A stretch of 64,000 nucleotides of DNA from positions 26,230 through 90,229 of IMG/VR virus record IMGVR_UViG_3300032070_000002, one strand, 5' to 3'. Position numbers and translations under genes: made by a program. Position 1 is the first letter of the stretch; the number at the start of each line of letters is the position of its first letter. The notes below the pieces were generated by a model that worked only from the letters and a program-made list of their open reading frames with translations, made no database searches and was not told where the DNA came from. The stretch is from a virus. Shown here piece after piece: positions 17,201 to 44,418 of the stretch.

Positions 17201-17621
17201 AAAACATCTTAATTATTGGCGTAAACGTAAAAGATGTATTATTTGTAAAGTAATATTAACTAGAAAAAATTTACGCCCTTGGATGAAAAGGTGTTACAGA
17301 TATATTTGTAATATATGTGAAAGAAAAGGGTCTATATCTTACTATAGGGAACATCAATTGTCTTCTGGAAATAAGTATTTTTCTAATATTAATAAACGGT
17401 CCTATCCTAAAGACGGTAAATGCGAAATTTGTAAAAGGAATAAAACCCTTAAAGGTAAATCTATTAGATTAGTTTACCACCACTGGAATAATAAAGACTT
17501 TTTGAAAGGTATTTGGACGTGCGTATATTGTCACGCTATGATGGAGTGTATAGAAAAAGGGCGTCATTTAGTTTATTTTAAACTTAAAAAATTAATAGAA
17601 AAATTAGAAGGTAAAAAATGA
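17136..17621 (+). CDS. HNH-type endonuclease
   Basis: CxxC pairs, CEIC...LVYHH...WTCVYCH; true start may be ATG at 17178. Confidence 0.65.
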   Translation: MSKVGILLEKEKKSMLKKQLHKKHLNYWRKRKRCIICKVILTRKNLRPWMKRCYRYICNICERKGSISYYREHQLSSGNKYFSNINKRSYPKDGKCEICKRNKTLKGKSIRLVYHHWNNKDFLKGIWTCVYCHAMMECIEKGRHLVYFKLKKLIEKLEGKK

Positions 17622-18499
17622 GTAAACCCCGGGCGGAAGCTAGAAATTTGTGGATAGAACGTTTCAAAAACTATTTAAAAACTCTAAAAAAAGAAGAATT
17701 AGAGTTAATAAAAAAAGAAGTGTTGCCTACCTCTAAAGTAAATAATTTAGAAGTTTTTAATTCTGGAATAATGGGAAGTCAAAGATTAATATATAAAGAG
17801 ATAACAAATAATATTCCTAAGGATGTAAAAACGATAGCCGTTCCTTTTGCTTGCGGTTTAGATTTAACTTATTATTTAACTAAAAAGGGTTATGTAGTTT
17901 ATTCTTGTGATAGAATGGAATGCGTAAGAATATTAACAGAAGTATTAAAAGATTTTATAACGGATACGGATTTAGTAAAAGCTTCAAATATTTTATGTTT
18001 TACAACGGGAAAATCTTTTGGTTGGGAAGACTATATCAAAATTATGCGGTTAAAATTATTTGTAGGTGATAAGTATAGGAATTGGTTTCATTGGCAAGAA
18101 GATGCTTTTGAGTGGCTACCTAGAATGATGGCGGCCCTGAATGTGGATTTAGTATATTTAGGTACGCCCACTATAATGGAAAATAATAAGAAATTCTATC
18201 AAAGATATGTAAAGTTAGAAAAGGAGTTAGGTAACGAAATTTCGGACGATTGGAATAGAGATAACGAAATGTTAAGGTTCCGTAAATTAGTGGAAATATG
18301 CAAGTCCAAAGCCGTTAAATACGTATACGCTGGCCACGGTAGTGGAGTCTCTAAAGTAGAAGAAAAAGAAAGTATATTAAAAGAATACTATAAGTATGTC
18401 TATACACTTTTTAAGCCGTATGATACCTTTAATGATTACGTGTTGTTTGCAAGTGAAGTACCCTTAAGGATTGATAGGAGACTATGGTATGAGAGATAA
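17618..18499 (+). CDS. Degenerate Dam/D12-class N6-adenine methyltransferase-like protein
   Basis: MGSQRL, VPFACG (for PF.GG), DAFEW, DLVYLGTP (for D.VY.DPPY). Confidence 0.55.
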   Translation: MSKPRAEARNLWIERFKNYLKTLKKEELELIKKEVLPTSKVNNLEVFNSGIMGSQRLIYKEITNNIPKDVKTIAVPFACGLDLTYYLTKKGYVVYSCDRMECVRILTEVLKDFITDTDLVKASNILCFTTGKSFGWEDYIKIMRLKLFVGDKYRNWFHWQEDAFEWLPRMMAALNVDLVYLGTPTIMENNKKFYQRYVKLEKELGNEISDDWNRDNEMLRFRKLVEICKSKAVKYVYAGHGSGVSKVEEKESILKEYYKYVYTLFKPYDTFNDYVLFASEVPLRIDRRLWYER

Positions 18500-25100: not shown

Positions 25101-25746
25101 ATATTTACATATTCTTACGGGAGAAATAAAAAGTAAAGTAAGCGCGGAACATAGAGTAAAAGCTAAACAAGTGGTATTTGGATTAATATACGGTAGAGGA
25201 ATACCTAGTTTAGTAAAGGATTTAGGAATAACGGAATTAGAAGCTATAGCAATTGTTAATTACGTGTTAGGAAAATATCCTAAAGCTAAATTATGGCTAG
25301 AAAATCAAAAGAAGGATGTAAAGAAGTATAAACGAGTAAAAGATTTATTTGGTAGAATTAGAAGGTTACCGGAAATAGATAGTAAGGATAATGAAAGAGT
25401 AGCAGAAGTTATTAGACAATGTTGTAACGCACCTGTTCAAGGCGGCGCAGCGGATATTACTAGTATAGCTACTATTAGAGTATATAACTTAATTAAAAAA
25501 TTAGAAATGTTAATGAGATTAATTTTAACTATACACGATTCTTTAAAATATTCTACACCAGTAAAAGAAATAGATAAGGGTATAGAATGTATGAAAAAAG
25601 GAATGTGTTCTAGCATTCCGGGAGTAACTTTTCCGCTAGAAATAGAAATAGAGATAGGACCAAATTGGTATGATTTAATTTCTTTAGAAGAATTTAATAA
25701 AGATAGAAATAAATACTTAAAGGAATGGAACTTACTTGAAGTATAA
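22159..25746 (+). CDS. polA: Family-4 UDG - 3'-5' exonuclease - DNA polymerase A fusion with intein
   Basis: UDG: CxxC, IGEALG, PFVG, KC|RPPENR, TYHPA; exo: DIETEG, NLKFD, YNASD; pol: PNLQNIP, DYAQIE, KQVVFGLIYG, HDS. Confidence 0.95.
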   Translation: MEQDIKPDNCIKCGLWKTSCVVNYQGQFFAYRVMGTGPQNAKVIFIGEALGQAETINQKPFVGDAGDTLNIALKEANINREDVYITNTCKCFYSPNVLVFTSKGWKMLGKIRKDDLVLTHKGRFRRVIAPLKIKVHPDTTFFTCYLKSNGGNPYKITVTGDHKFLTNKEWTKVSDLRIGDRVRVLAQKCIQCGSLFYSDYRQTQLCSLECTKKWNGIRGARQNRVQNIRDNISKSMKELYKKGIRNGFKDTINFRRKLDGSLNVIGRNGVGEKELYELLTKNRYEVKRQKLIADRYFADFYLPKLNIVIEVWNSSYRSMIDKRIWYEQRGYKFLDYHYSIIFRYPEVILTEIRNLEKNDNHEFNFIDTLLIDKKGITPRRKSVFSLSVVEDESFIAGGLVSHNCRPPENRPPKTMEIKCCLPFLLEEIRNISPKIICTLGSVALEAILKRKGISNIRGNIYETEIEGLKVKVIPTYHPAYVLRRPEYPNLKVDFHKDIKLVKEVSDNLDYKKEKLPTYYCTTPKVEDILIYIDKIKKVGLFGYDIETEGFNFLKDRIISIALSCVVQEAIAFYLIDYTPDEQDKIFAGLKEILESKELLKIGQNLKFDNKFFKTYGIEVKLPLFDTMLAHFLIDENSSHGLKDLAYKYTDMGGYEENFENIFKELKGKMKKDLIESLKETKKNSLEVYTKLLQEGLEKIDNFSIVPKEVLLPYNASDVDCTLRIYYALKDLIEKEELTKVYYYIMIPLLIVLTETEYSGIQIDTNYLNILSKDLQDRIEDIQFQINSRPEIKKVEELLPSLIKSKKIEDIKFNINSPKHLQVLLYKVCNLQPIKQIKTGYSTDEATLKTLQEKSEIVKLIMQYRTINHDFTTYVEQLRSSLDENGKCHTDYMQHGAVSGRVISHKPNLQNIPRDSNIKKLFIPDKGCVIISADYAQIEYKVWANYSNDPQMLEDIRNGLDIHSEVCCLVWPHLYKKVGDKQYLHILTGEIKSKVSAEHRVKAKQVVFGLIYGRGIPSLVKDLGITELEAIAIVNYVLGKYPKAKLWLENQKKDVKKYKRVKDLFGRIRRLPEIDSKDNERVAEVIRQCCNAPVQGGAADITSIATIRVYNLIKKLEMLMRLILTIHDSLKYSTPVKEIDKGIECMKKGMCSSIPGVTFPLEIEIEIGPNWYDLISLEEFNKDRNKYLKEWNLLEV
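22429..23367 (+). mobile_element. Intein in UDG domain with DUF559/Vsr-like endonuclease (313 aa)
   Basis: CFYSPNVLVFTSKGWK, TGDHKF, E..L...RQ....ADFYLPKLNIVIEV, SFIAGGLVSHN|C. Confidence 0.92.
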
Positions 25747-30278: not shown

Positions 30279-31234
30279 AAGAATACGATATAACTTATAC
30301 GTCCGATTTTCAATTAGATTTAGATAATAGAATAGACGATTTTATAAAATCCCTAAATCAAATAAAAGAAATTGCTAATAAGGGCAAACTTTTAATTATA
30401 GGCGGGGATATTTATAGAGATAGAAGGCCGCACCCTAAAGAGATGAATATATTCCGAGATTTTATAAAGAATATAAGCGTCCCAGTAGAAATAGTAATAG
30501 GTAATCACGACGAAAATTTAGATGTTACTACATTAGATGAATTCTTAAAATTTAATATAAAAGAAGTAACCTTACATAGACCTCCTTTTATATTAAAATA
30601 TAGCGGGTTAAATATATATTTAGACCATACTATTATTGAAGGGGCTAAAATGGGCCCTTCGGACTTTATATTAAATAATAAAAGGGTAAAACCGCTTAAA
30701 AATATATTGGATAATAAATGTGATTTTTATTTAATAGGGGATATACATAAAGCTCAAGTAGTAAATAAAGAACCTCCGGTTCTATATGCGGGTAGTATAG
30801 AAAGAGAAGATTTTGGAGAACGAAATGAAGGTAAATATGTTATACTAATAAATTCTAATACGAAGGAATACGTTTATAAGCCATTAAATATTAGGCCTAT
30901 GTATCAAATAAATTTAGATTTATCTTCGAGTAATGAGCAATTTAAAGAAGGAAAAATAGTTCCTCCCCAAGTAGAAAATGCAATAGTAAAAGTAGTTATT
31001 ACGGGAACTAAAGAACAAATAGAAAAATATAATGAAGCTAATTTAAAAGAAAGTTTAAATAAAACTTTTTCTTACAAAATACAGTATAATGTCTTAAAGG
31101 AAATAAAAAGTAGAAATACTAATATAAACGAAGGAAGATCGATAGAGGATTGTTTTAAGGAATATGCAAAAGAGCATAAATTTAACGAATACGAGTTAGA
31201 AAAAGGAATGGAAATACTAAGCTATGAATGTTAA
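30275..31234 (+). CDS. SbcD/Mre11-like nuclease
   Basis: SDFQ, GGDIY, GNHD, GDIH, YAGS...DFGE. Confidence 0.88.
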   Translation: MKEYDITYTSDFQLDLDNRIDDFIKSLNQIKEIANKGKLLIIGGDIYRDRRPHPKEMNIFRDFIKNISVPVEIVIGNHDENLDVTTLDEFLKFNIKEVTLHRPPFILKYSGLNIYLDHTIIEGAKMGPSDFILNNKRVKPLKNILDNKCDFYLIGDIHKAQVVNKEPPVLYAGSIEREDFGERNEGKYVILINSNTKEYVYKPLNIRPMYQINLDLSSSNEQFKEGKIVPPQVENAIVKVVITGTKEQIEKYNEANLKESLNKTFSYKIQYNVLKEIKSRNTNINEGRSIEDCFKEYAKEHKFNEYELEKGMEILSYEC

Positions 31235-31541
31235 AAGATTGATTCTTCATAATTTTTTAAGTCATAAAGAAGTGGATATAGATTTATCTAAGGAAGGTAT
31301 TTACAATATTATTGGAAAAACGGGTGCGGGAAAGAGTGCTATTAGGGATGCACTTACATATACGCTATTTGGAAAAGGCAGGTATGATGACCAAGAAAAG
31401 TATATTTCTGATTATGAAAAAGAAATGTTTGTAGTTGTAGAATTTGAACAAAATGAAAAAACTTTTAGAGTAACAAGAAAAAAGGTTAAGGGAGAAACTA
31501 CTAAGTTAGAAGTAGAGGAATTAAATGAAATTCGGAAATAG
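31224..31541 (+). CDS. SbcC/Rad50 ATPase, N-terminal fragment
   Basis: L.NFLSH, GKTGAGKSAI.DAL.Y.LFG. Confidence 0.88.
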   Translation: MNVKRLILHNFLSHKEVDIDLSKEGIYNIIGKTGAGKSAIRDALTYTLFGKGRYDDQEKYISDYEKEMFVVVEFEQNEKTFRVTRKKVKGETTKLEVEELNEIRK

Positions 31542-31981
31542 GGTAAAAGTTATAATTTTTTATGGAAAAAATCAAAAAGATAAATTTGAAATTAACGCAG
31601 AATTAGCAGAAATTCGTTGGGATAAAAATAGTTTTCAAATTCGGGGATTATTTAACCCAGATGTAATAAAAGTAGAAAAGGAAAATCTAAATGGAAAAAC
31701 TCCTTAATGAAATTTTAGATAAATTAAATTTTTTAATGGCTAATACCTATTTAATGATAGGAAAGGATTTAAAAACCGTAATGGATTTATATAGTGAAAG
31801 AAAAAAATTAGAACGGCCTACGCCTACTGAAATAGAATTAAAATATTCGGAAGATATCGCCGCGGTAAAGAAACACGCTTTTAGCAACAATCAATTTAAA
31901 ATTAGTGAAGATAGAAAATGGGTTATAGTAGAAGATAAGTATCATATTTATAAAATACCCTACGAATTATGGATAAGATAG
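31525..31981 (+). CDS. Two small hypothetical ORFs (31525..31707, 31691..31981) between SbcC halves
   Basis: Overlapping ORFs of 60 and 96 aa; no family recognised. Confidence 0.5.
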
Positions 31982-33213
31982 GAAATACTCTAAAGGAAAC
32001 GCAGGAAGCGCTAAATAAACTTATAGGTTTTGATTACGATACTTTTAGGTGTTCCGCGTGTTTTGAACAAGGCGAATCTAATAGTTTTTCAAAGTTAACT
32101 CCTAAAGAATCTAAACAAGTAGTTATGAAAATTTTACAATTAGGTAAATTAGAAATAAGAGAACAATTATGTAAAGATAAAGTAACTACTTTTTCTATGG
32201 AGTATAATAATATTTTTAAGGAATTAGAAGTAACAAAAACTTTAGAAGAAGTTATTGAGGATGATACGCCTATTAAGGAAAGAATAAGTATATTAGAAAA
32301 ATTAATAACTAATATACAAGTAGAAATAGAGAAAGCAAAAAAAAGTATACCTTACGAAATAAAATTAAACGAATTAGAAACAAGTATGGAAAGATTTGAT
32401 AAACTAGATAAATGTCCGACTTGTTTACAATCTATTAATGAAAATCATAAAAAAGAAATCCTACAAAAATATAAAGAAGCTATTCGTATTACAAAAAATT
32501 CTTTTAATTATGAAATTAGTCCTAGTCTATTTATAGATAATCAAAATCCAAGGCTATCTAAATTGAATTATGAATTAGGAGAATTGAAAAATAAATTAAA
32601 AAATATTGAGGAAAAGAAATTAAAGCGTACTAAATTAAATACTAAAAAGGAAGAGTTACAAAATAAGTTATATGCTTTAAAAAGGGACATAGATACGTAT
32701 AAAAAACTATCGGAAGCTTTTGGTAGAAATGGAATTCCTACAAATATTATAGAAAATACTCTTCCTGAGATAGAAAGTATAGTTAATGAATTATTAGAAT
32801 TATTAGATATAGATATGCAAATAAAAATAGATACCCAAAAAGAATTAAAAAGTGGCGGCCTATCAGATACTTTAGATATTAACATAGTTACTAATAATAT
32901 AGTTAGGCCATACTTTGGATTTTCAGGAGGAGAAAGATTTATTATAGATTTATCTTTAAGAGTTGCCTTAAGCGTAATTTTACTTAGACGAAAAGGATTA
33001 AATAATAGTACGTTAATAATAGACGAAGGAATGGGATCATTAGATGAGGCTGGCAGAAATAGGGTAGTAAAATTAATTAAAGTAATAAAAGATAAATTTG
33101 GATTTAAAAAGATTTTAGTTATTTCACATATGTTAGATGTTCGGGATAATATAGAAAATAAAATAGTAGTAGAAAAGATAAACGGTATTAGTAAATTGAC
33201 TTATAATTTATAA
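31969..33213 (+). CDS. SbcC/Rad50 ATPase, C-terminal fragment
   Basis: Q-loop F..SACFEQG, coiled coil, zinc hook CPTC, signature FSGGE, Walker B IIDEG, ISH. Confidence 0.9.
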   Translation: MDKIGNTLKETQEALNKLIGFDYDTFRCSACFEQGESNSFSKLTPKESKQVVMKILQLGKLEIREQLCKDKVTTFSMEYNNIFKELEVTKTLEEVIEDDTPIKERISILEKLITNIQVEIEKAKKSIPYEIKLNELETSMERFDKLDKCPTCLQSINENHKKEILQKYKEAIRITKNSFNYEISPSLFIDNQNPRLSKLNYELGELKNKLKNIEEKKLKRTKLNTKKEELQNKLYALKRDIDTYKKLSEAFGRNGIPTNIIENTLPEIESIVNELLELLDIDMQIKIDTQKELKSGGLSDTLDINIVTNNIVRPYFGFSGGERFIIDLSLRVALSVILLRRKGLNNSTLIIDEGMGSLDEAGRNRVVKLIKVIKDKFGFKKILVISHMLDVRDNIENKIVVEKINGISKLTYNL

Positions 33214-33231: not shown

Positions 33232-34368
33232 ATGAGAAATTCTTGGAATTTAAAAGATATTGACAATCTTAAAAAAATGATGAAACAAAATATTCATCCA
33301 ATAGAAATAGCGAAAACATTACAGCGGTCTTATGATTCAGTATGTGGAAAAATAAAATCAATTAAAAGAGAAGAAAAAATAGGAATTAAACCATATGAAA
33401 AAACAGAAGGAAAATTCAAGAACGAAGAAATAGTAGAAGAAACCAAAAAATATTTTGAGGCTGCAAAAGGCATTATTCATAAATATGATGATTTATATAA
33501 AAATATTAAATTAAAGACCTCTTTTTCATCTGCAAAACAAACAGAAGACCAGGTATTATTATTTTCTGATATGCACACTGGTATGATTAACAAAGCCCCT
33601 ATTACCGGAGAAATAACATATAATCCAGAAATTCAGAAAAAAGAATTACAAACTTTAATGGAAGGATTATATAGATTTTATCAATTATATAAACCTTCTT
33701 ATAATATAGAAACTTTTTATATTTTTTCTTTAGGAGATTTAATTACCAATGATAGAATTTATGAAGGACAGAAAATGGAAATCGCTTTTGGCGTAGGTAT
33801 ACAAATTACAGAAACATTAGAATATGTTAGTGATATGATTAGAAAATTATTGGAAATTTATCCCAGAATAGTTTATATTAATATAGTCGGAAATCACGGC
33901 AGAACTACGCCTCAGCCCATTAGCGAAGATGCTACGAGCAATTTTGAATATTTATTGGGAATATCATTAAAAGAAAGATTTGCTGGCAATAAAAGAGTAG
34001 AAATAATCCTCCCAGACGATTATTCTTATTCTTATACTATAAAAAATCATAGATATTTATTAGCTCACGGAAATACTATTAGTGGTTCAACATTAAATTC
34101 AATAGAAAGGGCGGCAAAAGATATTGCTAATTTAGTAGAAAGAGATTATTATGATGTTATTACAATTGGGCATTTTCATAGTTGTTATGAATTGCCGAGT
34201 ATTTCTCCTTCAACTACTCTTTTAGTTAATGGATGTTTTATTTATAAAGATGATTATGCCTATACCAAATTAAGAAAACATTCTACTGCTAAACAGTATT
34301 TATTTAATGTTTCAAAAAAATCAGCAATGCACAATTTACAGAAGGTGGATTTAAGGTGGAATAAATGA
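33232..34368 (+). CDS. HTH + calcineurin-like metallophosphoesterase
   Basis: SDMH.G, LGD, GNHGR, AHG, GHFH; N-terminal HTH. Confidence 0.8.
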   Translation: MRNSWNLKDIDNLKKMMKQNIHPIEIAKTLQRSYDSVCGKIKSIKREEKIGIKPYEKTEGKFKNEEIVEETKKYFEAAKGIIHKYDDLYKNIKLKTSFSSAKQTEDQVLLFSDMHTGMINKAPITGEITYNPEIQKKELQTLMEGLYRFYQLYKPSYNIETFYIFSLGDLITNDRIYEGQKMEIAFGVGIQITETLEYVSDMIRKLLEIYPRIVYINIVGNHGRTTPQPISEDATSNFEYLLGISLKERFAGNKRVEIILPDDYSYSYTIKNHRYLLAHGNTISGSTLNSIERAAKDIANLVERDYYDVITIGHFHSCYELPSISPSTTLLVNGCFIYKDDYAYTKLRKHSTAKQYLFNVSKKSAMHNLQKVDLRWNK

Positions 34369-34718
34369 AAGAAATAGAAATTCTACGATGTAGAGGCCGG
34401 GGTATTGTAGTAAAGGGAATTAAATCCATTCGTGAACGGGAATATATAATTGATAAGATTATGCGAGCTTCATTGGCTTATAGAAAATTATATAAATTAA
34501 GAAACGCAATATAAATAAAATGGAAAAGAAAAGATTTTGTTTAAAAAATATGTTTAACGTAGATGAAAACGTTACTTGTAAAAAATGTAATTATTATATT
34601 GATGCATCGGGTAGTTTTGAACCTTCGGAATGTACTTATAGTAATATAAAAAATAAAAAAGAAAATAGGGACGATTTTGGAAGAGGTTTTAACGGTTTAA
34701 GAGAAAGGGATTATTAAA

Positions 34719-35375
34719 ATGATAGAAAAGTTTTTAGAAAGTACTAATTTAAGTGAAAAAGCAAATTGGAAAGATATAAGGGATTTTGTAAAAGAAGCTA
34801 ATGAATTAAATGTTTTAGGAGTTTGTACATACATATATTGGAGCGGTATAGTAGATAAATATTTAAAGGAAGGGATAAAGAAAATTTACGTTATAGGATT
34901 TTATACGGGTTCAAAAGAGTTAATAGAAAGAGATTTATCCTTAGTTTCGGATACTAAAGCAGATGAATATGATGTTGTTTTACCTTTAGCTTATTTTAGC
35001 GTAGGAAATATTTCAAAAACAGAAGAACTTTTATTAAAGGTAAGAAAAGCTACAAAGGATAAAGTATTAAAAGTAATCATAGAAACAAATATTTTAAGGG
35101 AAGACCCTAAACCGGAAGAAAAAATAAAGAGTGCCGTTGAATTAGTAAAAGAAATAGGCGCAGATTTTATAAAAACTAATACCGGCCGATTTCCAAGAAA
35201 GATCGATATAGTAGAGGATATTAGGTTGATTAAAAAGTTTACTAAATTGCCTATTAAGGCCGCGGGCGGTATTAAAACGTATGAACAAGTAAAACAATTA
35301 ATTGATTTAGGAGTTAGTAGAATAGGCACCTCTACCGCAAAACAAATTATAGAGGAAGAAAATGGAATCCAATAA
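34719..35375 (+). CDS. deoC: Deoxyribose-phosphate aldolase
   Basis: DE.D.V, LKVIIET, GADFIKTNTG, IKAAGGI, RIGTS. Confidence 0.88.
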   Translation: MIEKFLESTNLSEKANWKDIRDFVKEANELNVLGVCTYIYWSGIVDKYLKEGIKKIYVIGFYTGSKELIERDLSLVSDTKADEYDVVLPLAYFSVGNISKTEELLLKVRKATKDKVLKVIIETNILREDPKPEEKIKSAVELVKEIGADFIKTNTGRFPRKIDIVEDIRLIKKFTKLPIKAAGGIKTYEQVKQLIDLGVSRIGTSTAKQIIEEENGIQ

Positions 35376-35964
35376 TCCCGAAAATAAGCCGGTTGAAATA
35401 GAAGATAATTATCCTTACATTACATATCTTATAGGCGCAATGGAGAAAACCGCTGAGAAAGATGATGGTTCTGCTAAAAGGGAAGATGTAGAAAGAGAAT
35501 TATTATTAAGAAATGTATATCCTATTAATCCCGTAAAACTAGAAGCATTTAAAACGAATATGAGTGTTGAAGAATCTAAAGAAAAAATGATAGGCTGGAT
35601 TGCTTCCGGTAATAGAGAACTTTTAAAAGAGAAATCCGTTGCTATTTGGTTTGGAATAGATTACGTCGCGGAAAACGGTCAACTAATACATATCCCGGGC
35701 GATTTTGATTATGTAAGAATGAGCGATTGGATTACTTTAGTTATAAATAGGGGCGATAAACCTTGCGGTAGTTTTGGAGAAAGTGCATACGGCGCTATTT
35801 TAGGAAAACCTCTTTACATTATTTCTGAAATGCCTAAAAAGGAATTACCTAAAAGTTTATTTCAATGGATGTGTATAGTTGACGGAGAACATTTTGAAAA
35901 TCTTTCTCAGTATTTAAAATATATTGATGAACAATATAAACTTAAAAGAAAAGAAGAAAAATGA
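35362..35964 (+). CDS. Nucleoside 2-deoxyribosyltransferase / Rcl-like dNMP N-glycosidase
   Basis: TYLIGAM, INP, D..V..SD, GS.GE...G...GKP pattern of the NDT fold. Confidence 0.65.
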   Translation: MESNNPENKPVEIEDNYPYITYLIGAMEKTAEKDDGSAKREDVERELLLRNVYPINPVKLEAFKTNMSVEESKEKMIGWIASGNRELLKEKSVAIWFGIDYVAENGQLIHIPGDFDYVRMSDWITLVINRGDKPCGSFGESAYGAILGKPLYIISEMPKKELPKSLFQWMCIVDGEHFENLSQYLKYIDEQYKLKRKEEK

Positions 35965-36289
35965 TTAAAGTTAAGGTTACTTTAATACAGGCGGATATAT
36001 TAGTAGTAGGTAAGTATTCTATTTCCGAAGAGGCTTGTTTAGGAATGATAAAAAGGTTTAAAGAAAATACTGAACCTGTTTTAGTTAGATTAGGTAAAAC
36101 TCCTTTAGTAATAGGTAAGTTAGTAGGTTTAGAATATAATAAAGAGAAAAAGGAATTATTAGGTGTTATTGATTTATATATGGATTTTAATGCAGGCGCA
36201 CAAATATTACAACAATTAGATACGCCCGACGGAATCAGAATATTAGATAGTAAAATAAAGGAAATTACAATGACCCCGGGAGGAAAAGG

Positions 36290-36661
36290 ATGAGATTATC
36301 GGATAAACAAAAAGAAGAATTAAAAAATCAATTTGAAGAGGTAATAAATAACTTTAAAGGGCATACGGATTTTCCTTATATATTACTTCAAATGATGAAG
36401 GTGCATAGTGATAAAAGTAATGACTATGCCCAAGATGAAAGCCCCTTTTCTAATATAGAACTTTGCGAACGCGCGGGTTTTGAAGCGTGGAAGGGCGTCG
36501 TTATAAGATTGGGGGATAAATATAGTAGACTATTGAATGCATTAGCGGGTAAGTTATTTAAGTGCGAAGGAATAGAAGATGCTTTTATAGATAATGCAAA
36601 TTATTCGGTAATAGGACTTATTGAATATCGGAAGGTAAAAGAAACCAATGGATCTAAATAA
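36290..36661 (+). CDS. DUF1599 / Nmad1 (MazG-like, nucleotide-modification associated)
   Basis: K..DY.....N.......G...R..DK..R.......E...D...D.ANY. Confidence 0.75.
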   Translation: MRLSDKQKEELKNQFEEVINNFKGHTDFPYILLQMMKVHSDKSNDYAQDESPFSNIELCERAGFEAWKGVVIRLGDKYSRLLNALAGKLFKCEGIEDAFIDNANYSVIGLIEYRKVKETNGSK

Positions 36662-36839
36662 ATCGTGGTTAAAACTCATAGAGTTTTGCAAACGCGAACG
36701 TTACGGCGAGCTTAAGGTAAAAATTCAAGATGGGGTACCGGTATCTTTACCCGCTCAAATTATAAAAAGAGAAAACTTAGATGGATCAATCACTACTACG
36801 GAAATATCAAAGCCGATAGATTTGACGAAGGAGGAATAG
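36648..36839 (+). CDS. DUF2292-like small protein
   Basis: YGELKVKIQDG.PV. Confidence 0.55.
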   Translation: MDLNKSWLKLIEFCKRERYGELKVKIQDGVPVSLPAQIIKRENLDGSITTTEISKPIDLTKEE

Positions 36840-37013
36840 TGTATTTCAGAAAAGAAAAATTTACGGAGGTAATAATATTAAAAAGATATAGTAGTGATAT
36901 ACTATCGGATGATATTAAAGAATTAGCAAAAGATAATATAATAGTAGATTTACAATTTACGGGCGACGGAAAGAATACATTTAATGCTTTAATACTTTAT
37001 AGGAAAAAATAAA

Positions 37014-37598
37014 ATGGAAAAATACGAAACATTTAATAATGAAATAAATTTAATCAAATCTGAAACAATAAAAGACTATGTTATAAAGACTCTTAAAGAA
37101 ACGCCAGAAATATTTTGGAAAATACCCGCTTCCTCTACCGGAAAATATCATCCCGAATGTACAAATAAAGAAGGAGGTTTAATTATACACGTAAAAAGGG
37201 TAGTATATATTTGCGATAGATTATCTTTCGGCTGGAACATAACCGACCTTAATAGAGATATGGTAATAGCCTCAAGTATTCTACACGACATAGCTAAGTG
37301 TGGAAAAGATAGCGGTATCTATGAAAATTATGTTAATCATCCTATAACTGCGGCTAATATGTTTAAGAAAACCGTAAACTTTAATAGTCAAGATATAACA
37401 CCTATAAATAAAACTATTATTATTAGGATAGCAAATTGTATTAATTATCATATGGGACTTTGGACTCCTAAATCTATAGTAAAACCCTTATCTCAATATA
37501 CATCCTTAGAATTATTGGTTTATACTTCAGATTATATGGCTTCTACTAAAACGTTAGTTACTCCGGTAGATGGAAGTTATACTGTAAAGGATATATAA
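37014..37598 (+). CDS. HD-domain phosphohydrolase
   Basis: PASSTGKYH, GGL..H, LHDIAK, H, HMG, D. Confidence 0.85.
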   Translation: MEKYETFNNEINLIKSETIKDYVIKTLKETPEIFWKIPASSTGKYHPECTNKEGGLIIHVKRVVYICDRLSFGWNITDLNRDMVIASSILHDIAKCGKDSGIYENYVNHPITAANMFKKTVNFNSQDITPINKTIIIRIANCINYHMGLWTPKSIVKPLSQYTSLELLVYTSDYMASTKTLVTPVDGSYTVKDI

Positions 37599-37828
37599 TG
37601 AATACCCTAATTAAAATATTTGATATTTTAGCTTCTATACTTACTGTTTTAAGCTTATATTTAATTTCTAAGTCTTATAAATGGTGGATACTTTATTGTT
37701 TTTCTAGCATACTTTTTACTATTGTTTGCTTTTATAATAAAATATACGGTTTAACATTAATGGGAGTATGCTTGTTTTTTACCGGGATAAATAATTATAG
37801 AATAGGTAAGAAGAATGATAAGAAGTGA
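37598..37828 (+). CDS. Short PnuC-like membrane protein
   Basis: Three hydrophobic helices; L...K....W.......LF.......YG pattern. Confidence 0.5.
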   Translation: MNTLIKIFDILASILTVLSLYLISKSYKWWILYCFSSILFTIVCFYNKIYGLTLMGVCLFFTGINNYRIGKKNDKK

Positions 37829-38183
37829 TATAGTTAGAATTTTAGGATTTGCGTTAATTATTAGCGGACTTATTAACGGTATTAGATATAGATGGTCAGC
37901 TTTAAAAATTCAAGAAGCAAAAATAGCTAGAGGACATTCTAGAAAATCTATGAATACAGGTATTATAGATGATATTATTAAATTACTTTATGGAATTGTT
38001 AAAATGGATTTATATTTAGTTGGTTCAGCGATAGCTTGTCTTACGTTTATGATATATAAATGGTTTATAATATATTTATATTACCCTTATAGAAAAAGGG
38101 GCTTACTAAATTTTAAGAGACCTAGTATTATAAAATATACAATTAATAGTTTAATACCTAATAAGTATAGGAAAAGATTATGA
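37815..38183 (+). CDS. SemiSWEET/PQ-loop-like membrane protein
   Basis: Three TM helices with KI..AK..RG.S loop and YG....D..L. Confidence 0.4.
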   Translation: MIRSDIVRILGFALIISGLINGIRYRWSALKIQEAKIARGHSRKSMNTGIIDDIIKLLYGIVKMDLYLVGSAIACLTFMIYKWFIIYLYYPYRKRGLLNFKRPSIIKYTINSLIPNKYRKRL

Positions 38184-38491
38184 TTATATATTTTGTAATT
38201 ATTTTAGTCGGTTTAATAGAAGCATTTTGTAGCACTTTAAATTCTAAATTTAGACAAAAAAGTAAAAGAATATTAACATTTGTTACTTCATTTATAAATA
38301 TCTTTGTTTGGTATTGTTTACTTCGTATGGTTATAGAAAATATAGCTAATATAAATTTAGCGATAGTTTATGGAATAGCTTATGCTTTAGGGGACGTATT
38401 AGGATTACTGTTTGACACTTATTTAGAAAAAATAGCAAAATTTAGAGGTATTAAATATAGAAGAAGGGCGTCAAGTAAAAGGAAAAGATGA
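38180..38491 (+). CDS. DUF5698/DUF2179-like membrane protein
   Basis: Three TM helices; STL..K, SF.....W...L..V, Y..AYALG. Confidence 0.5.
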   Translation: MIIYFVIILVGLIEAFCSTLNSKFRQKSKRILTFVTSFINIFVWYCLLRMVIENIANINLAIVYGIAYALGDVLGLLFDTYLEKIAKFRGIKYRRRASSKRKR

Positions 38492-38891
38492 AATACCTTA
38501 ATAAATCATTTTCGGTTTTTATGGGAAGTAAAGATTACGAAAAAAACTACGATAATATTTTTAAAAAATCGTTAAAAGAAAAAATTAAGAATTTTATAGA
38601 TAAAATATTATTTAATTTATTTATTAAGGAAATAAAGTAATAATTGCCTAACTTACAAATCTGAGGCCTTAATAGGCTAACAGTCAATAAGAGGGCTAGA
38701 GTAGGAAAATAATTTCTGAAATAGCCCTTTTATATTGGTTTAAAAATGGAAAACTTCTTATTTTTAATAGTGGGATTAAGTATTTGTTATATAGATTTTA
38801 TTATCATAGGACTTTATAAACTTTATAAAAGGATAAAATTAAGAATAATGAATAGTAAAAAATAATTTATTAAAACTGAAAGGAGTAACAA

Positions 38892-41709: not shown

Positions 41710-44418
41710 ATGGATAAACCTTTAAGAAGCCAAGATAGACAATTAGATTACAAACAAAAGATAAGGGAAATGATCGATAGAAAAATATTCCTACTAACAG
41801 ACGATTCAATATATGATGAAAAACCCGTCACTCCTTCTGTGTTTTTTAGCGATTGGATGAAACAACCCTTATTTCCCTTACAACAAATAGCCGTAAATGA
41901 TATATTAGTAGAACTGGATAATGAGGGTAATTCACAATGGAATACTAAGTACGAGGAAGCGTATCTATTATGGGGCGAAGGTTGCATTGACGGAGGTACT
42001 TTAATTAAGGATACGGTAACAAAAGAAGCGCATACTTTAAGGTCTTGGTATAGATTAAATAAATCATTTAATGTAATAGCTTATGATTTTGAAAATTCGT
42101 CTTTTGTAATAACAAAAGCAGATGTACCTTATTTAAAAGGTAGTACTTCTTTGTATGAAGTAGTAACCTTGGCAGATTCCGGAAAATATATTAGAAGAAT
42201 AGTTTGTACAAAGGAACATAAATTTTTTACTAAAGAAGGTTGGAAACAGTTAAAAGATATTAAGGAAGGAGATAATATAGCCTATTATGACCACGGTAAT
42301 GCTATTTTACAAATAAAACAACAACCGCCTTGGAATAAGAATAAAAAGTGGAATGTATTAAATAAACAGCATATTAGTTACGGAGTAAAAAATTCAGTTA
42401 AATATAAAACTTACTTAAGTTCGGATAAACGGAAAGAGTGGCTTAAAACTATAGGGGCTAAGTTATCCGAACAATTTAGAAAAACTCCTTGGAAGTTTAT
42501 TTCTAAAGGGGGAAGGTGTAAAATAGTAAAATATAAAAATACCTATGTTCAAGGTAACGATGAATACCGATTTGTAAAGCTATTAGATGAATTAGACATA
42601 CCTTGGGAAAGATGTAAACAGTGGTTTAAGTATACCTATGAAGGAAAAGAACATAATTATCAACCTGATTTTGTAGTCAATCTTAACGGTAACAAAATAT
42701 TATATGAAATTAAGGGTTGGTTAAGGCCCGTTGATGAAGTAAAATTAAATGCGGTAAGAAACTCAAATAGACCTATAGTGTTAGTAACAAGCGATAAATT
42801 AGAATTAATGTTGAAAAATAAAAATATAATTACTAATCATACAAAATTAAAGTTTACAAAAATAGTATCTATTAAGTATAAAAAAGAAGGCGACTACTAT
42901 GACTTTAACGTGCCCGTATATCACAATTACTTATTAAAAGGATTATTACACCATAATAGCGGAAAAGATTTTACCGTAAGTAGGATATGGACTTATACAA
43001 TTTATTGGTTATTATGTTTAAAGAATCCTCAAATGTACTTTAGGTTAGGAGGAGATACAGAACCGATAGATTTAGTAAACGTATCTTTTGATGAGGAACA
43101 AGCTCAACACGTATTTTTTAAGAAGTTTAAAAGTGCATTAGGAAGTGTAGTAAATCCTGCAACAGGAAAGAAATGGTTTGAGGAAAAAGGAATGGTAATA
43201 AAGGAAACAAGTAAAGCTCAGATAATAGAATTTCCTAAACACATAACCACATACAGTTTGAATAGTAAGGAATATAAGGCAGAAGGGAAAAACGTTTTAA
43301 TGGCTTTGTTTGATGAAATGGCTGTATTTAAAGTAGATAAGGCAGATGAGTTGTATAAGAACCTTAAGGGAAGTATGCGTTCAAGATTTCCTAAACAACA
43401 CAAATTTATAGCTATAAGTTACAAACGAGATGATTATGATTATATGATGATAAGGTGGGAGAAAACAAAAGATAATGAAAGGATATATAGAAGCGGGCCC
43501 CTTGCTACCTGGGAAGTAAACAAATTAAAAACCCGAGAAGACTTTAACGAAGCTTACGTTACTGACCCCGAAGATTCCGAACGTAGGTACGAATGTAAGG
43601 GTAGTACAAGTAAGGGAGGTTACTTTAAATTTAAAGAAAAGATTGTAGAGAATATAAACAAAAACAGAACCTCACCCGTATTAGATGAAACTATTCCAAT
43701 ACGTGATATCTTGGGAATAAGATTTAAAAATGATTTTATAGGTAAAGAAAATTATAAGTACCGAATACAAATTGACTTAGCTAAAGGAAAGGATTTAGAA
43801 AATTCAAAAGCAGATTGTGCAGGATTTGCATTAGGGCATCTTGAACCTACTGAGGAAGAAGATAAACCTAAAGTAATAGTTGACTTAATGATGCAATTAA
43901 AATCAGAGCCGGGCAAGGAAATACAATTTGAGCATATACGACAACTCATTTATGATTTAATTGTAAAAAGAAATTTTAGTATAGGTAAGGTAACCCTTGA
44001 CGGATATCAATCAACTGACTTTATGCAACTATTAAGTAATAAAGGAATAGAGTGCGAATTATTATCCGTAGATAAAGATACAAGCGCCTACGATACAATG
44101 AAGGGTTTAATATATACTGGAAGGTTAGACTACTACGGACATAAAGTTTTTATTAGAGAGTGTGAAGAAGTAAGGTTAATAAACGGAAAGGTAGACCATC
44201 CTGACTTATCTCGTAGGCGAGCCTTTGAAGAAAAAGATGAAAGAGGTAGTAAGGATGTAAGTGACGCTGTTGCAGGGTTATGTAAAAGTTTAATAGGCGA
44301 TAGGCCTACTACTACAAAATGGTTAGGTATGAATGAACCCGACGAGGAAAACAAAGACGGCGCAAACAAAAGGGAATACGGTGATAATTATAAAATAGAG
44401 GATGAAGACGATGATTAA
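41710..44418 (+). CDS. terL: Terminase large subunit with intein
   Basis: PLQ, Walker A GEG|SGKD, Walker B LFDE, IS, nuclease IDLA, DGYQS, KVDHP...SKDVSDAVAG. Confidence 0.92.
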   Translation: MDKPLRSQDRQLDYKQKIREMIDRKIFLLTDDSIYDEKPVTPSVFFSDWMKQPLFPLQQIAVNDILVELDNEGNSQWNTKYEEAYLLWGEGCIDGGTLIKDTVTKEAHTLRSWYRLNKSFNVIAYDFENSSFVITKADVPYLKGSTSLYEVVTLADSGKYIRRIVCTKEHKFFTKEGWKQLKDIKEGDNIAYYDHGNAILQIKQQPPWNKNKKWNVLNKQHISYGVKNSVKYKTYLSSDKRKEWLKTIGAKLSEQFRKTPWKFISKGGRCKIVKYKNTYVQGNDEYRFVKLLDELDIPWERCKQWFKYTYEGKEHNYQPDFVVNLNGNKILYEIKGWLRPVDEVKLNAVRNSNRPIVLVTSDKLELMLKNKNIITNHTKLKFTKIVSIKYKKEGDYYDFNVPVYHNYLLKGLLHHNSGKDFTVSRIWTYTIYWLLCLKNPQMYFRLGGDTEPIDLVNVSFDEEQAQHVFFKKFKSALGSVVNPATGKKWFEEKGMVIKETSKAQIIEFPKHITTYSLNSKEYKAEGKNVLMALFDEMAVFKVDKADELYKNLKGSMRSRFPKQHKFIAISYKRDDYDYMMIRWEKTKDNERIYRSGPLATWEVNKLKTREDFNEAYVTDPEDSERRYECKGSTSKGGYFKFKEKIVENINKNRTSPVLDETIPIRDILGIRFKNDFIGKENYKYRIQIDLAKGKDLENSKADCAGFALGHLEPTEEEDKPKVIVDLMMQLKSEPGKEIQFEHIRQLIYDLIVKRNFSIGKVTLDGYQSTDFMQLLSNKGIECELLSVDKDTSAYDTMKGLIYTGRLDYYGHKVFIRECEEVRLINGKVDHPDLSRRRAFEEKDERGSKDVSDAVAGLCKSLIGDRPTTTKWLGMNEPDEENKDGANKREYGDNYKIEDEDDD
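41983..42957 (+). mobile_element. Intein in terminase Walker A with PD-(D/E)XK (TnsA-like) endonuclease (325 aa)
   Basis: CIDGGTLI, CTKEHKF, YQPDF...YEIKGW, YDF.VP.YHNY...GLLHHN|S. Confidence 0.92.

What the first reader, a model, noticed from the sequence alone, without database searches (positions are those of the whole stretch)
34719..38491. Putative phage deoxynucleotide-dismantling module: DeoC + NDT/Rcl-like + Nmad1 + HD + transporters
Overlapping genes form a coherent route. dNTP goes to dNMP via the MazG-like DUF1599. dNMP goes to free base plus deoxyribose-5-P via the Rcl/MilB-type NDT fold. Deoxyribose-5-P goes to glyceraldehyde-3-P plus acetaldehyde via DeoC. An HD phosphohydrolase and three small transporter-like proteins follow. 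Phages normally build dNTPs, and DeoC is not a gene I expect in one. Inference: selective destruction of one nucleotide, base swapping linked to the deazaguanine system, burning host DNA sugar for energy, or reverse-DeoC RNR-independent dNMP synthesis (no RNR is seen in this window).
Basis: partly seen in the sequence, partly recalled or inferred. Interest (0 to 1): 0.8.

Follow-up and report, generated by a model that had tools for sequence, protein, structure and literature searches.

The report
Phage deoxynucleotide-breakdown gene pair (DeoC + NDT-like)
An uncultured 90-kb phage carries a genuine deoxyribose-phosphate aldolase directly coupled to a base-removing enzyme of the deoxyribosyltransferase fold, a pairing kept in related phages. 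Together they probably take DNA building blocks apart into a free base and simple sugars, a route that phages are not known to encode.

Summary
The genes are real and translationally coupled.

**What each gene is**
- 34719-35375 is a true class I DeoC. It passes the NCBIfam equivalog cut-off and keeps the catalytic Lys, Lys and Asp.
- 35362-35964 is a virus-specific branch of the NDT superfamily. The fold match is Z 14.6. The Tyr/Asp/Glu triad is invariant. It has no Asp at the 5'-OH position, which fits a nucleotide substrate.
- The HD domain is real.
- The DUF1599/Nmad1 call is below threshold, and its MazG-like nature is unproven.
- The three "transporters" are only small membrane proteins.

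**Conservation**
- DeoC followed by an NDT-family gene recurs in five other viral genomes, with different NDT subfamilies.
- In 23 of 25 loci the NDT gene is followed by a PF18909 dATP/dGTP diphosphohydrolase. This is the pairing shown biochemically for DmtZ + DUF5664 in Z-genome phages (NAR 2026).

**Best reading (0.55)**
dNTP goes to dNMP, then to base plus dR5P, then to G3P plus acetaldehyde. The target base is unknown.

**Not supported**
- A link to deazaguanine: relatives without preQ0 genes keep the pair.
- The transporter role.
- Reverse-DeoC synthesis.

No RNR or thymidylate synthase is found in the record. Earlier notes of this scan report the same pair on other phage DNA. I class it as a new variant of a known kind.

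The parts
33232..34368 (+). HTH + calcineurin-like metallophosphoesterase ('exonuclease' PHROG). It is the most constant upstream neighbour of DeoC in this phage lineage.
   Evidence: phrog_284 at E 9.6e-40, no Pfam hit. A homologue (MPE or d15) lies 0-4 genes upstream of DeoC in nearly all 20 DeoC loci. MPE motifs are visible in the relatives' sequences.
34719..35375 (+). Class I deoxyribose-5-phosphate aldolase (DeoC/DERA)
   Evidence: PF01791 35.3 bits. TIGR00126 equivalog 118.3 against cut-off 117.3. PDB DERAs down to E 3.7e-25 over the full length. D82, D85, K118, K152 and K180 are invariant among 7 phage copies.
35362..35964 (+). Virus-specific NDT-superfamily enzyme. Predicted dNMP N-glycosidase, with possible dR5P transferase activity.
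   Evidence: 121 metagenomic homologues. 350 profile hits among 1.84 billion representatives; the distant ones are PF05014/PF15891. Y22, D114 and E140 are invariant. AF2 pLDDT 87.8. VIA Z 14.6 to NDTs and 12.7 to DNPH1. Pro134 lies at -6 from the catalytic Glu, where nucleoside NDTs have Asp.
35961..36293 (+). Conserved 110-aa protein of unknown function
   Evidence: No Pfam or PHROG hit. Homologues occur in G012, G017 and G039. In G039 it sits in the same slot, between the NDT and Nmad1-like genes.
36290..36661 (+). All-alpha DUF1599/Nmad1-like protein. Candidate nucleotide pyrophosphohydrolase occupying the position that PF18909 holds in relatives (inference).
   Evidence: PF07659 19.9 bits against 25; phrog_1485 at E 1.8e-11. 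41 homologues, with invariant K42, D45, R73-D76-K77, R80, E93, D97 and D101. Five-helix model with pLDDT 85. Best fold match AF_0060 (2p06), Z 8.1 over 86 of 88 residues. It lies next to or near the NDT gene in G039, G040 and G041.
36648..37012 (+). Two small ORFs (63 and 57 aa), unknown, not conserved in relatives
   Evidence: No family hits. No tblastn match in seven relatives' genomes.
37014..37598 (+). HD-domain phosphohydrolase, substrate unknown
   Evidence: PF01966 27.4 bits; phrog_5889 at E 1.1e-36. Homologues in SPO1-like, CP-51-like and Clostridium phages. In G012, G017 and G040 the homologue lies elsewhere in the genome.
37598..37828 (+). 76-aa membrane protein
   Evidence: At least 2 hydrophobic segments. 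NMN_transporter 17.5 bits against 27.3, covering only the first 59 of 175 profile positions. Homologues in G039 and G040.
37815..38183 (+). 122-aa membrane protein. It lies between DeoC and the NDT gene in G012 and G017.
   Evidence: Hydrophobic segments. No family hit. Homologues in G012, G017, G007, G022, G023, G038 and G039.
38180..38491 (+). 103-aa 3-TM DUF5698 membrane protein
   Evidence: PF18955 36.6 bits against 27.5. Cluster c3 is present in 16 of 25 NDT loci. In many of them it sits near an M14/AstE-like peptidase.

Best explanation
The region encodes a short catabolic route for deoxynucleotides.
1. A nucleotide phosphohydrolase trims a dNTP to dNMP. In relatives this is a PF18909 dATP/dGTP diphosphohydrolase. 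Here it is probably the DUF1599-like protein and/or the HD enzyme.
2. The NDT-fold enzyme (35362-35964) cleaves the N-glycosidic bond of the dNMP through its Glu140 nucleophile. This releases the free base and 2-deoxyribose 5-phosphate.
3. The co-translated DeoC (34719-35375) splits that sugar phosphate into glyceraldehyde 3-phosphate and acetaldehyde, which makes the removal irreversible.

The upstream exonuclease-like metallophosphoesterase and SbcCD could feed the route with dNMPs from degraded DNA. Which base is targeted is unknown. An acidic residue (E28) sits where DmtZ has its adenine-reading Asp12.

Status of each step:
- Shown by homology: the DeoC identity, and the NDT fold with its catalytic triad.
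- Inferred: the nucleotide (not nucleoside) substrate, hydrolase rather than transferase activity, the identity of the first-step enzyme, and the physiological purpose.
For: - DeoC passes the equivalog cut-off and keeps its catalytic residues.
- The NDT fold is matched at Z 14.6, and Tyr/Asp/Glu are invariant over 44 diverse members.
- At position -6 from the catalytic Glu the viral family has Pro, Cys, Thr, Ser, Met or Gly. The nucleoside NDTs 2a0k, 7m5h and 7o62 have Asp there. The CMP glycosidase BcmB has Ser and DmtZ has Thr.
- DeoC and the NDT gene overlap by 14 nt.
- DeoC followed by an NDT-family gene occurs in five other viral genomes. The closest relative, G039 (capsid protein 76% identical), has an NDT only 23% identical in the same slot, while the flanking DeoC is 49% and Nmad1 66% identical. 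The pairing is kept while the gene diverges or is replaced.
- 23 of 25 NDT loci have a PF18909 gene just downstream.
- PF18909 (DUF5664) and an NDT-family enzyme, DmtZ, were shown to convert dATP to dAMP to adenine + dR5P. That work used E. coli DeoC as the coupling enzyme (PMC12884076).
- A DeoC homologue is present in 5 of 10 complete NDT-bearing genomes. It is almost absent from 50,697 GenBank phage records.
Against: - There is no biochemical evidence for any step.
- The fold does not separate hydrolases from transferases: NDTs score Z 14.6 and DNPH1 12.7.
- This genome has no PF18909. Its stand-in shows no detectable homology to PF18909.
- In 14 other loci of the wider lineage DeoC sits directly before the terminase module, without an adjacent NDT gene.
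- One complete DeoC-bearing genome (G028) gave no NDT hit.
- Five complete NDT-bearing genomes lack DeoC.
- A phage with no RNR or thymidylate synthase would seem to need dNMPs rather than burn them.
- All the genomes compared are related, so co-occurrence is partly shared descent.
Confidence: 0.55

Rival explanations
1. The chemistry is the same, but the purpose is sanitising rather than depleting. The NDT-fold enzyme would act like human DNPH1 on modified dNMPs (such as methylated or hydroxymethylated ones) released when the phage nucleases digest host DNA. This would keep them out of phage DNA or away from host sensors. DeoC would dispose of the sugar.
For: - The fold is equally close to DNPH1, solved with hmdUMP bound (8qhq, Z 12.1).
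- The module lies directly after SbcD, SbcC and an exonuclease-like phosphoesterase.
- A 2026 preprint listed reports a defence system triggered by m6-dAMP arising from chromosome degradation. I read only the title and abstract.
- This would explain why a phage without RNR can afford the enzyme.
Against: - Nothing in the sequence points to a modified base.
- The constant partner in relatives is a dATP/dGTP diphosphohydrolase. That fits triphosphate pool control better than clean-up of monophosphates from DNA digestion.
Confidence: 0.15
2. The NDT-fold enzyme is mainly a deoxyribose-5-phosphate transferase, like the second activity of DmtZ. It would move dR5P from dGMP (or dAMP) to a free 7-deazaguanine base (preQ0 or CDG) made by the phage's FolE2/QueD/QueE/QueC. 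That would give a modified dNMP for replicative incorporation. The released guanine would be recycled by the phosphoribosyltransferase in the cluster.
For: - The window encodes a complete preQ0 pathway that yields a free base, plus a 6-oxopurine-type PRTase.
- PRTase, FolE2, QueD and QueE travel together with DeoC-NDT-Nmad1 in own, G039 and G041.
- In G041 a QueD-like gene lies between the NDT and Nmad1-like genes.
- No PF01702 TGT is detectable.
- DmtZ sets the precedent for natural dR5P transfer to a non-canonical base.
- Hutinet et al. 2019 raised undetected deoxyribosyltransferases as a possibility.
Against: - The pair is kept in genomes with no deazaguanine genes, namely G040, G012, G017 and G021.
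- A transferase releases no dR5P, so the tight coupling to DeoC would be unexplained.
- A DpdA4/DUF6610-like candidate exists at 15717-16457, on weak evidence: 2 of 10 homologues, E 0.011.
- Hutinet et al. 2023 found a DpdA in all phages known to carry deazaguanines.
Confidence: 0.1
3. The adjacency has no metabolic meaning. DeoC would be a lineage-core auxiliary gene that boosts the host's own deoxynucleoside catabolism for carbon and energy. The NDT-fold gene would be a mobile accessory gene with another target, such as nucleosides or a signalling nucleotide, that happens to be inserted beside it.
For: - In 14 loci of the wider lineage DeoC sits as MPE...DeoC-d2-d5-d1-TerL, with the NDT gene far away or absent.
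- NDT genes occur in many phages without DeoC.
- The stretch between DeoC and the terminase module is variable.
Against: - The NDT slot right after DeoC is filled in six genomes by differing NDT subfamilies.
- The product of the predicted NDT reaction is exactly DeoC's substrate.
- Start and stop codons overlap.
Confidence: 0.12
4. The route runs in reverse as RNR-independent dNMP synthesis. DeoC would condense G3P and acetaldehyde to dR5P, and the NDT-fold enzyme would attach a base.
For: - No RNR or thymidylate synthase is in the record.
- The DERA reaction is reversible (established enzymology).
Against: - Attaching a base to unactivated dR5P is the reverse of a strongly favoured hydrolysis (established knowledge of N-glycosidases).
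- NDT-family enzymes form their covalent intermediate from a nucleoside or nucleotide donor, not from the free sugar phosphate.
- The record is only 78% complete.
Confidence: 0.03

Closest known systems
DmtZ with DutZ or DUF5664 (PF18909) in PurZ0 phages Ghobes and Wayne (Poubanne et al., NAR 2026, PMC12884076)
   Same: A phage NDT-superfamily enzyme with a Tyr/(Asp or Asn)/Glu triad and no acidic residue at the 5'-OH position, genetically paired with a dNTP diphosphohydrolase. In relatives of this phage the partner is the same Pfam family, PF18909. E28 aligns with DmtZ Asp12 and E140 with Glu103.
   Different: Sequence relation to DmtZ is marginal: the A2 profile does not find it, and hhalign probability is 22%. 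No PurZ occurs in this phage or in 24 relatives. This genome has no PF18909. A DeoC gene is coupled here, which the DmtZ paper does not describe in phages; there DeoC is only an assay reagent. There is a 40-residue helical insertion at residues 57-97.
DNPH1/Rcl, 2'-deoxynucleoside 5'-phosphate N-hydrolase
   Same: Same fold (Z 12.7, rmsd 3.0 A, 137 residues). Same predicted reaction, dNMP -> base + dR5P. Non-acidic residue at -6 from the nucleophile.
   Different: Only 10-12% identity. The profile E-value to Rcl 2khz is 0.32. It has an acidic residue where Rcl has Arg19. It is viral, larger, and sits in an operon with the aldolase.
MilB / BcmB CMP (hmCMP) N-glycosidases
   Same: NDT-fold nucleotide hydrolases. 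BcmB's SPGTHIEIG motif closely resembles the SPGTHKELG of the G040 copy.
   Different: Those act on ribonucleotides in antibiotic biosynthesis. Here the coupling to DeoC points to a 2'-deoxy substrate.
Bacterial deo-operon route (nucleoside phosphorylase, DeoB mutase, DeoC)
   Same: It ends in the same DeoC reaction. DeoC here is an equivalog-level match.
   Different: The cellular route goes dN -> dR1P -> dR5P. The phage pair would reach dR5P in one step from dNMP, without phosphorylase or mutase. I did not see homologues of those in the Pfam scans of about 50 window proteins.
DatZ (HD) + MazZ pool clearing in PurZ phages
   Same: An HD phosphohydrolase and an all-alpha nucleotide pyrophosphatase-like protein encoded together in a phage that modifies a purine.
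   Different: The HD protein here matched only the general PF01966 model. Its specificity is unknown, and in relatives it is not linked to the module.

Membership tests
Class I deoxyribose-phosphate aldolase (DeoC, TIGR00126 / PF01791) | Full-length match above the curated cut-offs | tested here: met
   TIGR00126 118.3 bits against 117.3, profile positions 3-210 of 211. PF01791 35.3 against 23.8.
Class I deoxyribose-phosphate aldolase (DeoC, TIGR00126 / PF01791) | Schiff-base Lys in the (F/W)IKT(N/S)TG motif, second Lys in K(A/P)(A/S)GG, and the Asp of the proton relay | tested here: met
   K152, K180 and D82/D85 align with Aquifex DERA 1mzh and are invariant in 7 phage copies. Residue roles come from established DERA enzymology.
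Class I deoxyribose-phosphate aldolase (DeoC, TIGR00126 / PF01791) | Cleaves dR5P to G3P + acetaldehyde | not testable with these tools
   Needs an enzyme assay.
Nucleoside 2-deoxyribosyltransferase superfamily (PF05014 / PF15891) | Flavodoxin-like NDT fold | tested here: met
   VIA Z 14.6, rmsd 2.5 A, 133 of 137 residues of 7o62. The 48 best rows are all NDT, DNPH1, MilB, BcmB or YtoQ. Foldseek probability 1.00.
Nucleoside 2-deoxyribosyltransferase superfamily (PF05014 / PF15891) | Catalytic Tyr (strand 1), Asp, and Glu nucleophile in the G(T/S)xxE motif | tested here: met
   Y22, D114 and E140 are invariant in A1 (32 sequences) and A2 (44 sequences, mean identity 22%). They align with the TbPDT, E. 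faecalis and D. psychrophila NDT motifs.
Nucleoside 2-deoxyribosyltransferase superfamily (PF05014 / PF15891) | Pfam model match of the protein itself | tested here: not met
   No Pfam family at E <= 0.1 for the window protein. The link is through homologues: 10 of 32 and 22 of 44.
dNMP N-glycosidases of the NDT fold (DNPH1/Rcl, DmtZ) | No Asp/Asn at the 5'-OH-binding position, leaving room for a 5'-phosphate | tested here: met
   Pro134 at -6 from E140. Relatives have Cys, Thr, Ser, Met or Gly. The nucleoside NDTs 2a0k, 7m5h and 7o62 have Asp. BcmB has Ser and DmtZ has Thr97.
dNMP N-glycosidases of the NDT fold (DNPH1/Rcl, DmtZ) | Detectable sequence kinship with DmtZ or DNPH1 | tested here: inconclusive
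   hhalign of A2 against Ghobes DmtZ gives probability 21.9%, with the triad in register. hmmsearch finds no hit. Rcl 2khz scores E 0.32.
dNMP N-glycosidases of the NDT fold (DNPH1/Rcl, DmtZ) | Genetic pairing with a dNTP diphosphohydrolase | tested here: met
   PF18909 lies directly downstream in 23 of 25 loci of the family, and classic MazG is also present in some. In this genome itself the partner is only inferred.
dNMP N-glycosidases of the NDT fold (DNPH1/Rcl, DmtZ) | Hydrolyses dNMP to base + dR5P | not testable with these tools
   Needs an enzyme assay.
All-alpha NTP pyrophosphohydrolases (MazG-like), for 36290-36661 | Family model or profile match | tested here: inconclusive
   DUF1599 19.9 bits against 25. 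No PDB profile hit. hhalign to the PF18909 cluster gives probability 0.2%.
All-alpha NTP pyrophosphohydrolases (MazG-like), for 36290-36661 | Four/five-helix NTP-PPase fold | tested here: inconclusive
   The best of 48,161 chains is AF_0060 (2p06), Z 8.1, 86 of 88 residues. By my recollection SCOP places it among the all-alpha NTP pyrophosphatases. Z is under the tool's stated caution level for helical bundles.
HD-domain phosphohydrolases (PF01966), for 37014-37598 | HD domain above the gathering score | tested here: met
   27.4 bits against 22, residues 57-173.
PnuC / NMN transporter (PF04973), for 37598-37828 | Family model match over the 7-8-TM transporter | tested here: not met
   17.5 bits against 27.3. 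Only profile positions 2-59 of 175, in a 76-aa protein.

The most novel reading that the evidence does not exclude
The NDT-fold enzyme is a natural deoxyribose-5-phosphate transferase. It would load the phage-made free 7-deazaguanine base (preQ0 or CDG) onto dR5P taken from a canonical purine dNMP. This would be a nucleotide-level, DpdA-independent route to deazaguanine DNA. The DUF1599-like and HD enzymes would drain the competing dNTP. The cluster's PRTase would recycle released guanine into GTP for more preQ0. DeoC would remove dR5P from the hydrolytic side reaction.
Probability: 0.1. Interest if true: 0.85.

Novelty: new variant of a known kind. Interest (0 to 1): 0.6.

Why it matters
Phages are known for building or re-routing dNTP pools. 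A phage-encoded route that irreversibly takes a deoxynucleotide apart down to central metabolites has not been described in the literature I could search.

The only precedent for the first two steps is from 2026 and concerns Z-genome actinophages. Here the same logic appears in unrelated, uncultured phages that have no PurZ. It uses new NDT subfamilies, includes a DeoC gene, and in some genomes sits beside a deazaguanine pathway.

Finding the target base would show whether these phages exclude a canonical nucleotide, clean up modified nucleotides from digested host DNA, blunt a nucleotide-sensing defence, or simply burn host DNA.

The enzymes are small and easy to express. Natural dNMP-level NDT enzymes are also of interest for making nucleotide analogues.

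Tried and rejected
- **Z-genome module.** Rejected. PF00709 (PurZ/PurA) is absent from this record and from 24 relatives.
- **NDT gene tied to deazaguanine synthesis.** Not supported. QueD (PF01242) is absent from all 24 NDT-bearing records. tblastn of all own ORFs finds no QueD/QueE/QueC/FolE2 in G012, G017, G007, G021 or G040.
- **The 293-aa protein before QueC (17618-18499) as DpdA.** Rejected. It is Dam-methylase-like.
- **15717-16457 as DpdA.** No support from Pfam, NCBIfam, PDB sequence or PDB profile searches. The only signal is weak DUF6610 hits in 2 of 10 homologues.
- **Nmad1-like protein homologous to PF18909.** Not supported. Foldseek found nothing at E < 1.
- **Pfam DeoC model over relatives' genomes.** It missed true homologues. 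I therefore give family-model negatives limited weight and repeated the searches with proteins.
- **Searches that found nothing.** Single-protein viral scan for DeoC. Megablast of 15 kb against GenBank phages, and tblastn of the NDT protein against them.
- **Promoter and terminator scan.** No better than shuffled sequence.
- **PDB sequence searches for the NDT protein and for its close family profile.** Nothing found.
- **Literature.** 'Nmad1' and 'YtoQ' gave nothing useful. Kaminski & Labesse 2013 is not held.

Full report
**Setting**

The window is bases 26230-90229 of a 90,229-bp IMG/VR virus record that CheckV rates 78% complete. All genes run on the + strand and G+C is about 0.29. Megablast finds no close relative among 50,697 GenBank phage records.

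Other genes in the window:
- primase-helicase
- a UDG-fused family A DNA polymerase with an intein
- RecA
- SbcD and a split SbcC
- dUTPase
- RNA ligase and a PNK-like kinase
- an intein-bearing large terminase

The window also holds a preQ0 set:
- QueD, 8491-8937
- a 6-oxopurine-type phosphoribosyltransferase, 10110-10541
- radical-SAM QueE, 11697-12338
- FolE2, 13811-14644
- an intein-bearing QueC, 18650-20497

The record has no RNR of class I/II or III and no ThyA or ThyX.

**Observation**

From 33232 to 38640 the ORFs form a chain with junctions of -14, -4, -1 or +1 nt.

*DeoC, 34719-35375*
- It passes Pfam DeoC (35.3 bits against 23.8) and the NCBIfam deoC equivalog (118.3 against 117.3).
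- It aligns end to end with solved DERAs, the best being 1mzh at E 3.7e-25.
- The Schiff-base lysine motif FIKTNTG, the IKAAGG lysine and the EYDVV aspartate are present. They are invariant in seven phage copies.

*NDT-like protein, 35362-35964*
- The protein itself has no Pfam, PHROG or PDB sequence match.
- It has 121 metagenomic homologues.
- A profile search of 1.84 billion representatives gives 350 hits. Half of the distant members sampled carry PF05014 or PF15891.
- The protein atlas places it among virus-only clusters named nucleoside 2-deoxyribosyltransferase family.
- The AlphaFold model has pLDDT 87.8.
- The model superposes on the NDTs 7o62 and 7m5h at Z 14.6 (rmsd 2.5 and 2.4 A; 133 of 137 residues of 7o62). 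It scores 12.8 on YtoQ, 12.7 on DNPH1 and 11-12 on MilB and BcmB.
- Y22, D114 and E140 are invariant across 44 members with 22% mean identity. They align with the catalytic motifs of solved NDTs.

*Other proteins*
- The HD domain of 37014-37598 passes its cut-off.
- The DUF1599/Nmad1 label of 36290-36661 rests on 19.9 bits against a cut-off of 25. One homologue carries the domain.
- The three downstream proteins are small multi-pass membrane proteins. Only DUF5698 on the last one is a significant match. The PnuC-like hit on the 76-aa protein is below threshold and covers a third of the model.

**Substrate level**

In the printed profile alignments the residue six positions before the catalytic Glu differs by enzyme type:

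| Enzyme | Type | Residue at -6 |
|---|---|---|
| TbPDT 2a0k | nucleoside NDT | Asp |
| E. faecalis 7m5h | nucleoside NDT | Asp |
| D. psychrophila 7o62 | nucleoside NDT | Asp |
| BcmB | CMP N-glycosidase | Ser |
| Ghobes DmtZ | dAMP hydrolase / dR5P transferase | Thr97 |
| this protein | - | Pro134 |
| its relatives | - | Cys, Thr, Ser, Met or Gly |

The DmtZ paper states that NDTs hold the 5'-OH with Asp or Asn, and that hydrolases and DmtZ have uncharged, space-saving residues there. This favours a 5'-phosphorylated substrate. It is an inference from alignment, not a structure with ligand.

E28, nearly invariant, lies six residues after the catalytic Tyr. DmtZ Asp12 (proposed to read the adenine amino group) and Rcl Arg19 occupy the same offset. 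hhalign puts the two residues in the same column.

**Conservation of the neighbourhood**

*The NDT partner*
- Twenty-four viral loci encode close relatives of the NDT protein.
- In 23 of 25 loci, counting the window, a cluster lies directly downstream. Pfam identifies it as PF18909, dATP/dGTP diphosphohydrolase.
- Some loci add a classic MazG.
- A distant clade adds a second NDT paralogue in tandem.

*DeoC at the genome level*
- DeoC lies within 6 kb of the NDT gene only in G012 and G017.
- A DeoC homologue is present in 6 of 24 records and in 5 of 10 complete ones.

*Closer kin found through the DUF1599-like protein*
- Searching viral contigs with this protein uncovered G039, G040 and G041.
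- In all three the order is HTH-phosphoesterase, DeoC, an NDT-superfamily gene, then the DUF1599-like gene. Between the last two there is a c43 homologue, nothing, or a QueD-like gene.
- Their NDT genes belong to other subfamilies. They match a profile built without this protein's clade at E 2e-49, 5e-31 and 5e-13.
- G039 is the nearest genome, with capsid protein 76% identical. Its DeoC is 49% and its Nmad1-like protein 66% identical, but its NDT is only 23% identical.
- The DeoC-NDT juxtaposition is therefore kept while the NDT gene itself diverges strongly or is replaced.

*The wider lineage*
- In terminase-related phages DeoC has a fixed place: phosphoesterase ... DeoC - d2 - d5 - d1 - TerL. 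There is no NDT gene beside it.
- Of 14 such additional records, five hold an NDT gene elsewhere. Most of the rest are fragments. One complete genome (G028) gave none.
- In GenBank phages DeoC relatives appear in only 21 records. Most of these are short unannotated fragments or bacterial contigs.

**Published precedent**

Poubanne et al. (NAR 2026, PMC12884076) report the following:
- DmtZ, an NDT-family protein of PurZ0 phages, hydrolyses dAMP to adenine and dR5P. It also transfers dR5P to 2-aminoadenine.
- DutZ or a DUF5664 (= PF18909) enzyme supplies dAMP from dATP.
- The dR5P was measured with E. coli DeoC as the coupling enzyme.

The gene pair found in relatives of this phage (NDT-like + PF18909) is the same two-family combination. 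The DeoC gene adds in cis the enzyme used in that assay.

The family here is not DmtZ itself. The A2 profile does not detect DmtZ, and hhalign gives 22% probability. None of 25 genomes has PurZ.

**Mechanism proposed**

1. A dNTP is trimmed to dNMP.
2. The NDT-fold enzyme cleaves the glycosidic bond through Glu140.
3. DeoC cleaves the released dR5P.

In this genome the first step is unassigned, because PF18909 is absent. The DUF1599-like protein sits where PF18909 sits in G012 and G017. It has a five-helix model whose best structural match covers all of AF_0060 at Z 8.1. Profile comparison gives no homology, and the Z value is within the tool's caution range for helical proteins.

The HD enzyme is a second candidate. 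Its homologues in relatives are unlinked to the module. They occur in SPO1-like and other Firmicute phages without an assigned function.

**The deazaguanine link**

- For: the free-base product of the preQ0 pathway would be an ideal acceptor for a DmtZ-type transferase. PRTase, FolE2, QueD and QueE co-travel with the module in own, G039 and G041.
- Against: G040 (complete), G012, G017 and G021 keep an NDT gene and DeoC (adjacent in G040, G012 and G017) without any deazaguanine gene. A transferase would leave DeoC without a substrate.
- I keep this as the most novel reading, at about 10%.

**The membrane proteins**

No evidence makes them transporters. The 122-aa protein is the one most tied to the module, lying between DeoC and NDT in G012 and G017. 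In many relatives the DUF5698 protein lies near an M14/AstE-like peptidase and a membrane-anchored trypsin-like protease. That would equally fit a lysis or envelope role.

**Earlier notes of this scan**

Searches show that first readers and follow-up agents reported DeoC + NDT-fold pairs on other phage DNA. The cases include T4-like and jumbo phages, a 105-kb phage with about 40 further examples, and an Asgard archaeon. I did not test those claims. My own evidence for conservation is limited to the genomes listed above.

**Verdict**

It is a new variant of a kind that became known in 2026. The new features are the DeoC coupling, new NDT subfamilies, the absence of PurZ, and a DUF1599-like partner.

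Noticed in passing
window 18650-20497, 22159-25746, 41710-44418; L017 and L018 NDT genes: Inteins interrupt QueC, the DNA polymerase and the large terminase of this phage. In relatives the NDT gene itself carries an intein, giving products of 520-545 aa.
   Followed up: partly
window 10110-10541: A 143-aa 6-oxopurine-type phosphoribosyltransferase sits inside the preQ0 gene set. It co-travels with FolE2, QueD and QueE in G039 and G041. It could salvage guanine, or it could make a deazaguanine ribonucleotide.
   Followed up: partly
G039 (L095-L099): The closest relative has FolE2, QueD, QueE and PRTase. It has no BLAST-detectable QueC, DpdA candidate or Dam-like gene. Its pathway may stop at CDG, or those genes may lie in the missing 28% of the record.
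   Followed up: no
Two of ten homologues hit DUF6610 (the DpdA4 family) at E 0.011. The D48-N49-G50, H169-L-L-G172 and D194 motifs are invariant.
   Followed up: partly
L086 5583-6002: A QueD/PTPS-like gene lies between the NDT-like and DUF1599-like genes in G041.
   Followed up: no
L020-L025, gene upstream of the NDT gene: A second NDT paralogue (PF05014, E 5.4e-8) stands in tandem with the NDT-like gene in a distant clade.
   Followed up: partly
window 17618-18499: The 293-aa protein before QueC resembles D12-class Dam methyltransferases by language-model features and structure (TM 0.70), though Pfam finds nothing.
   Followed up: partly
window 31224-31541 and 31969-33213: SbcC/Rad50 is split into a Walker A piece and the remainder, with two small ORFs between them. 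In G041 the homologue is one 545-aa gene.
   Followed up: no
window 37014-37598: The HD protein has homologues in SPO1 (gp32.5/32.6 region), SP8, CampHawk, CP-51-like and Clostridium phages. This hints at a Firmicute host.
   Followed up: no
L002-L016, genes c3-c8-c10-c2 upstream of the NDT gene: In many relatives a DUF5698 membrane protein, an M14/AstE-like peptidase and a membrane-anchored trypsin-like protease precede the NDT gene. This may be a lysis or envelope cassette.
   Followed up: no
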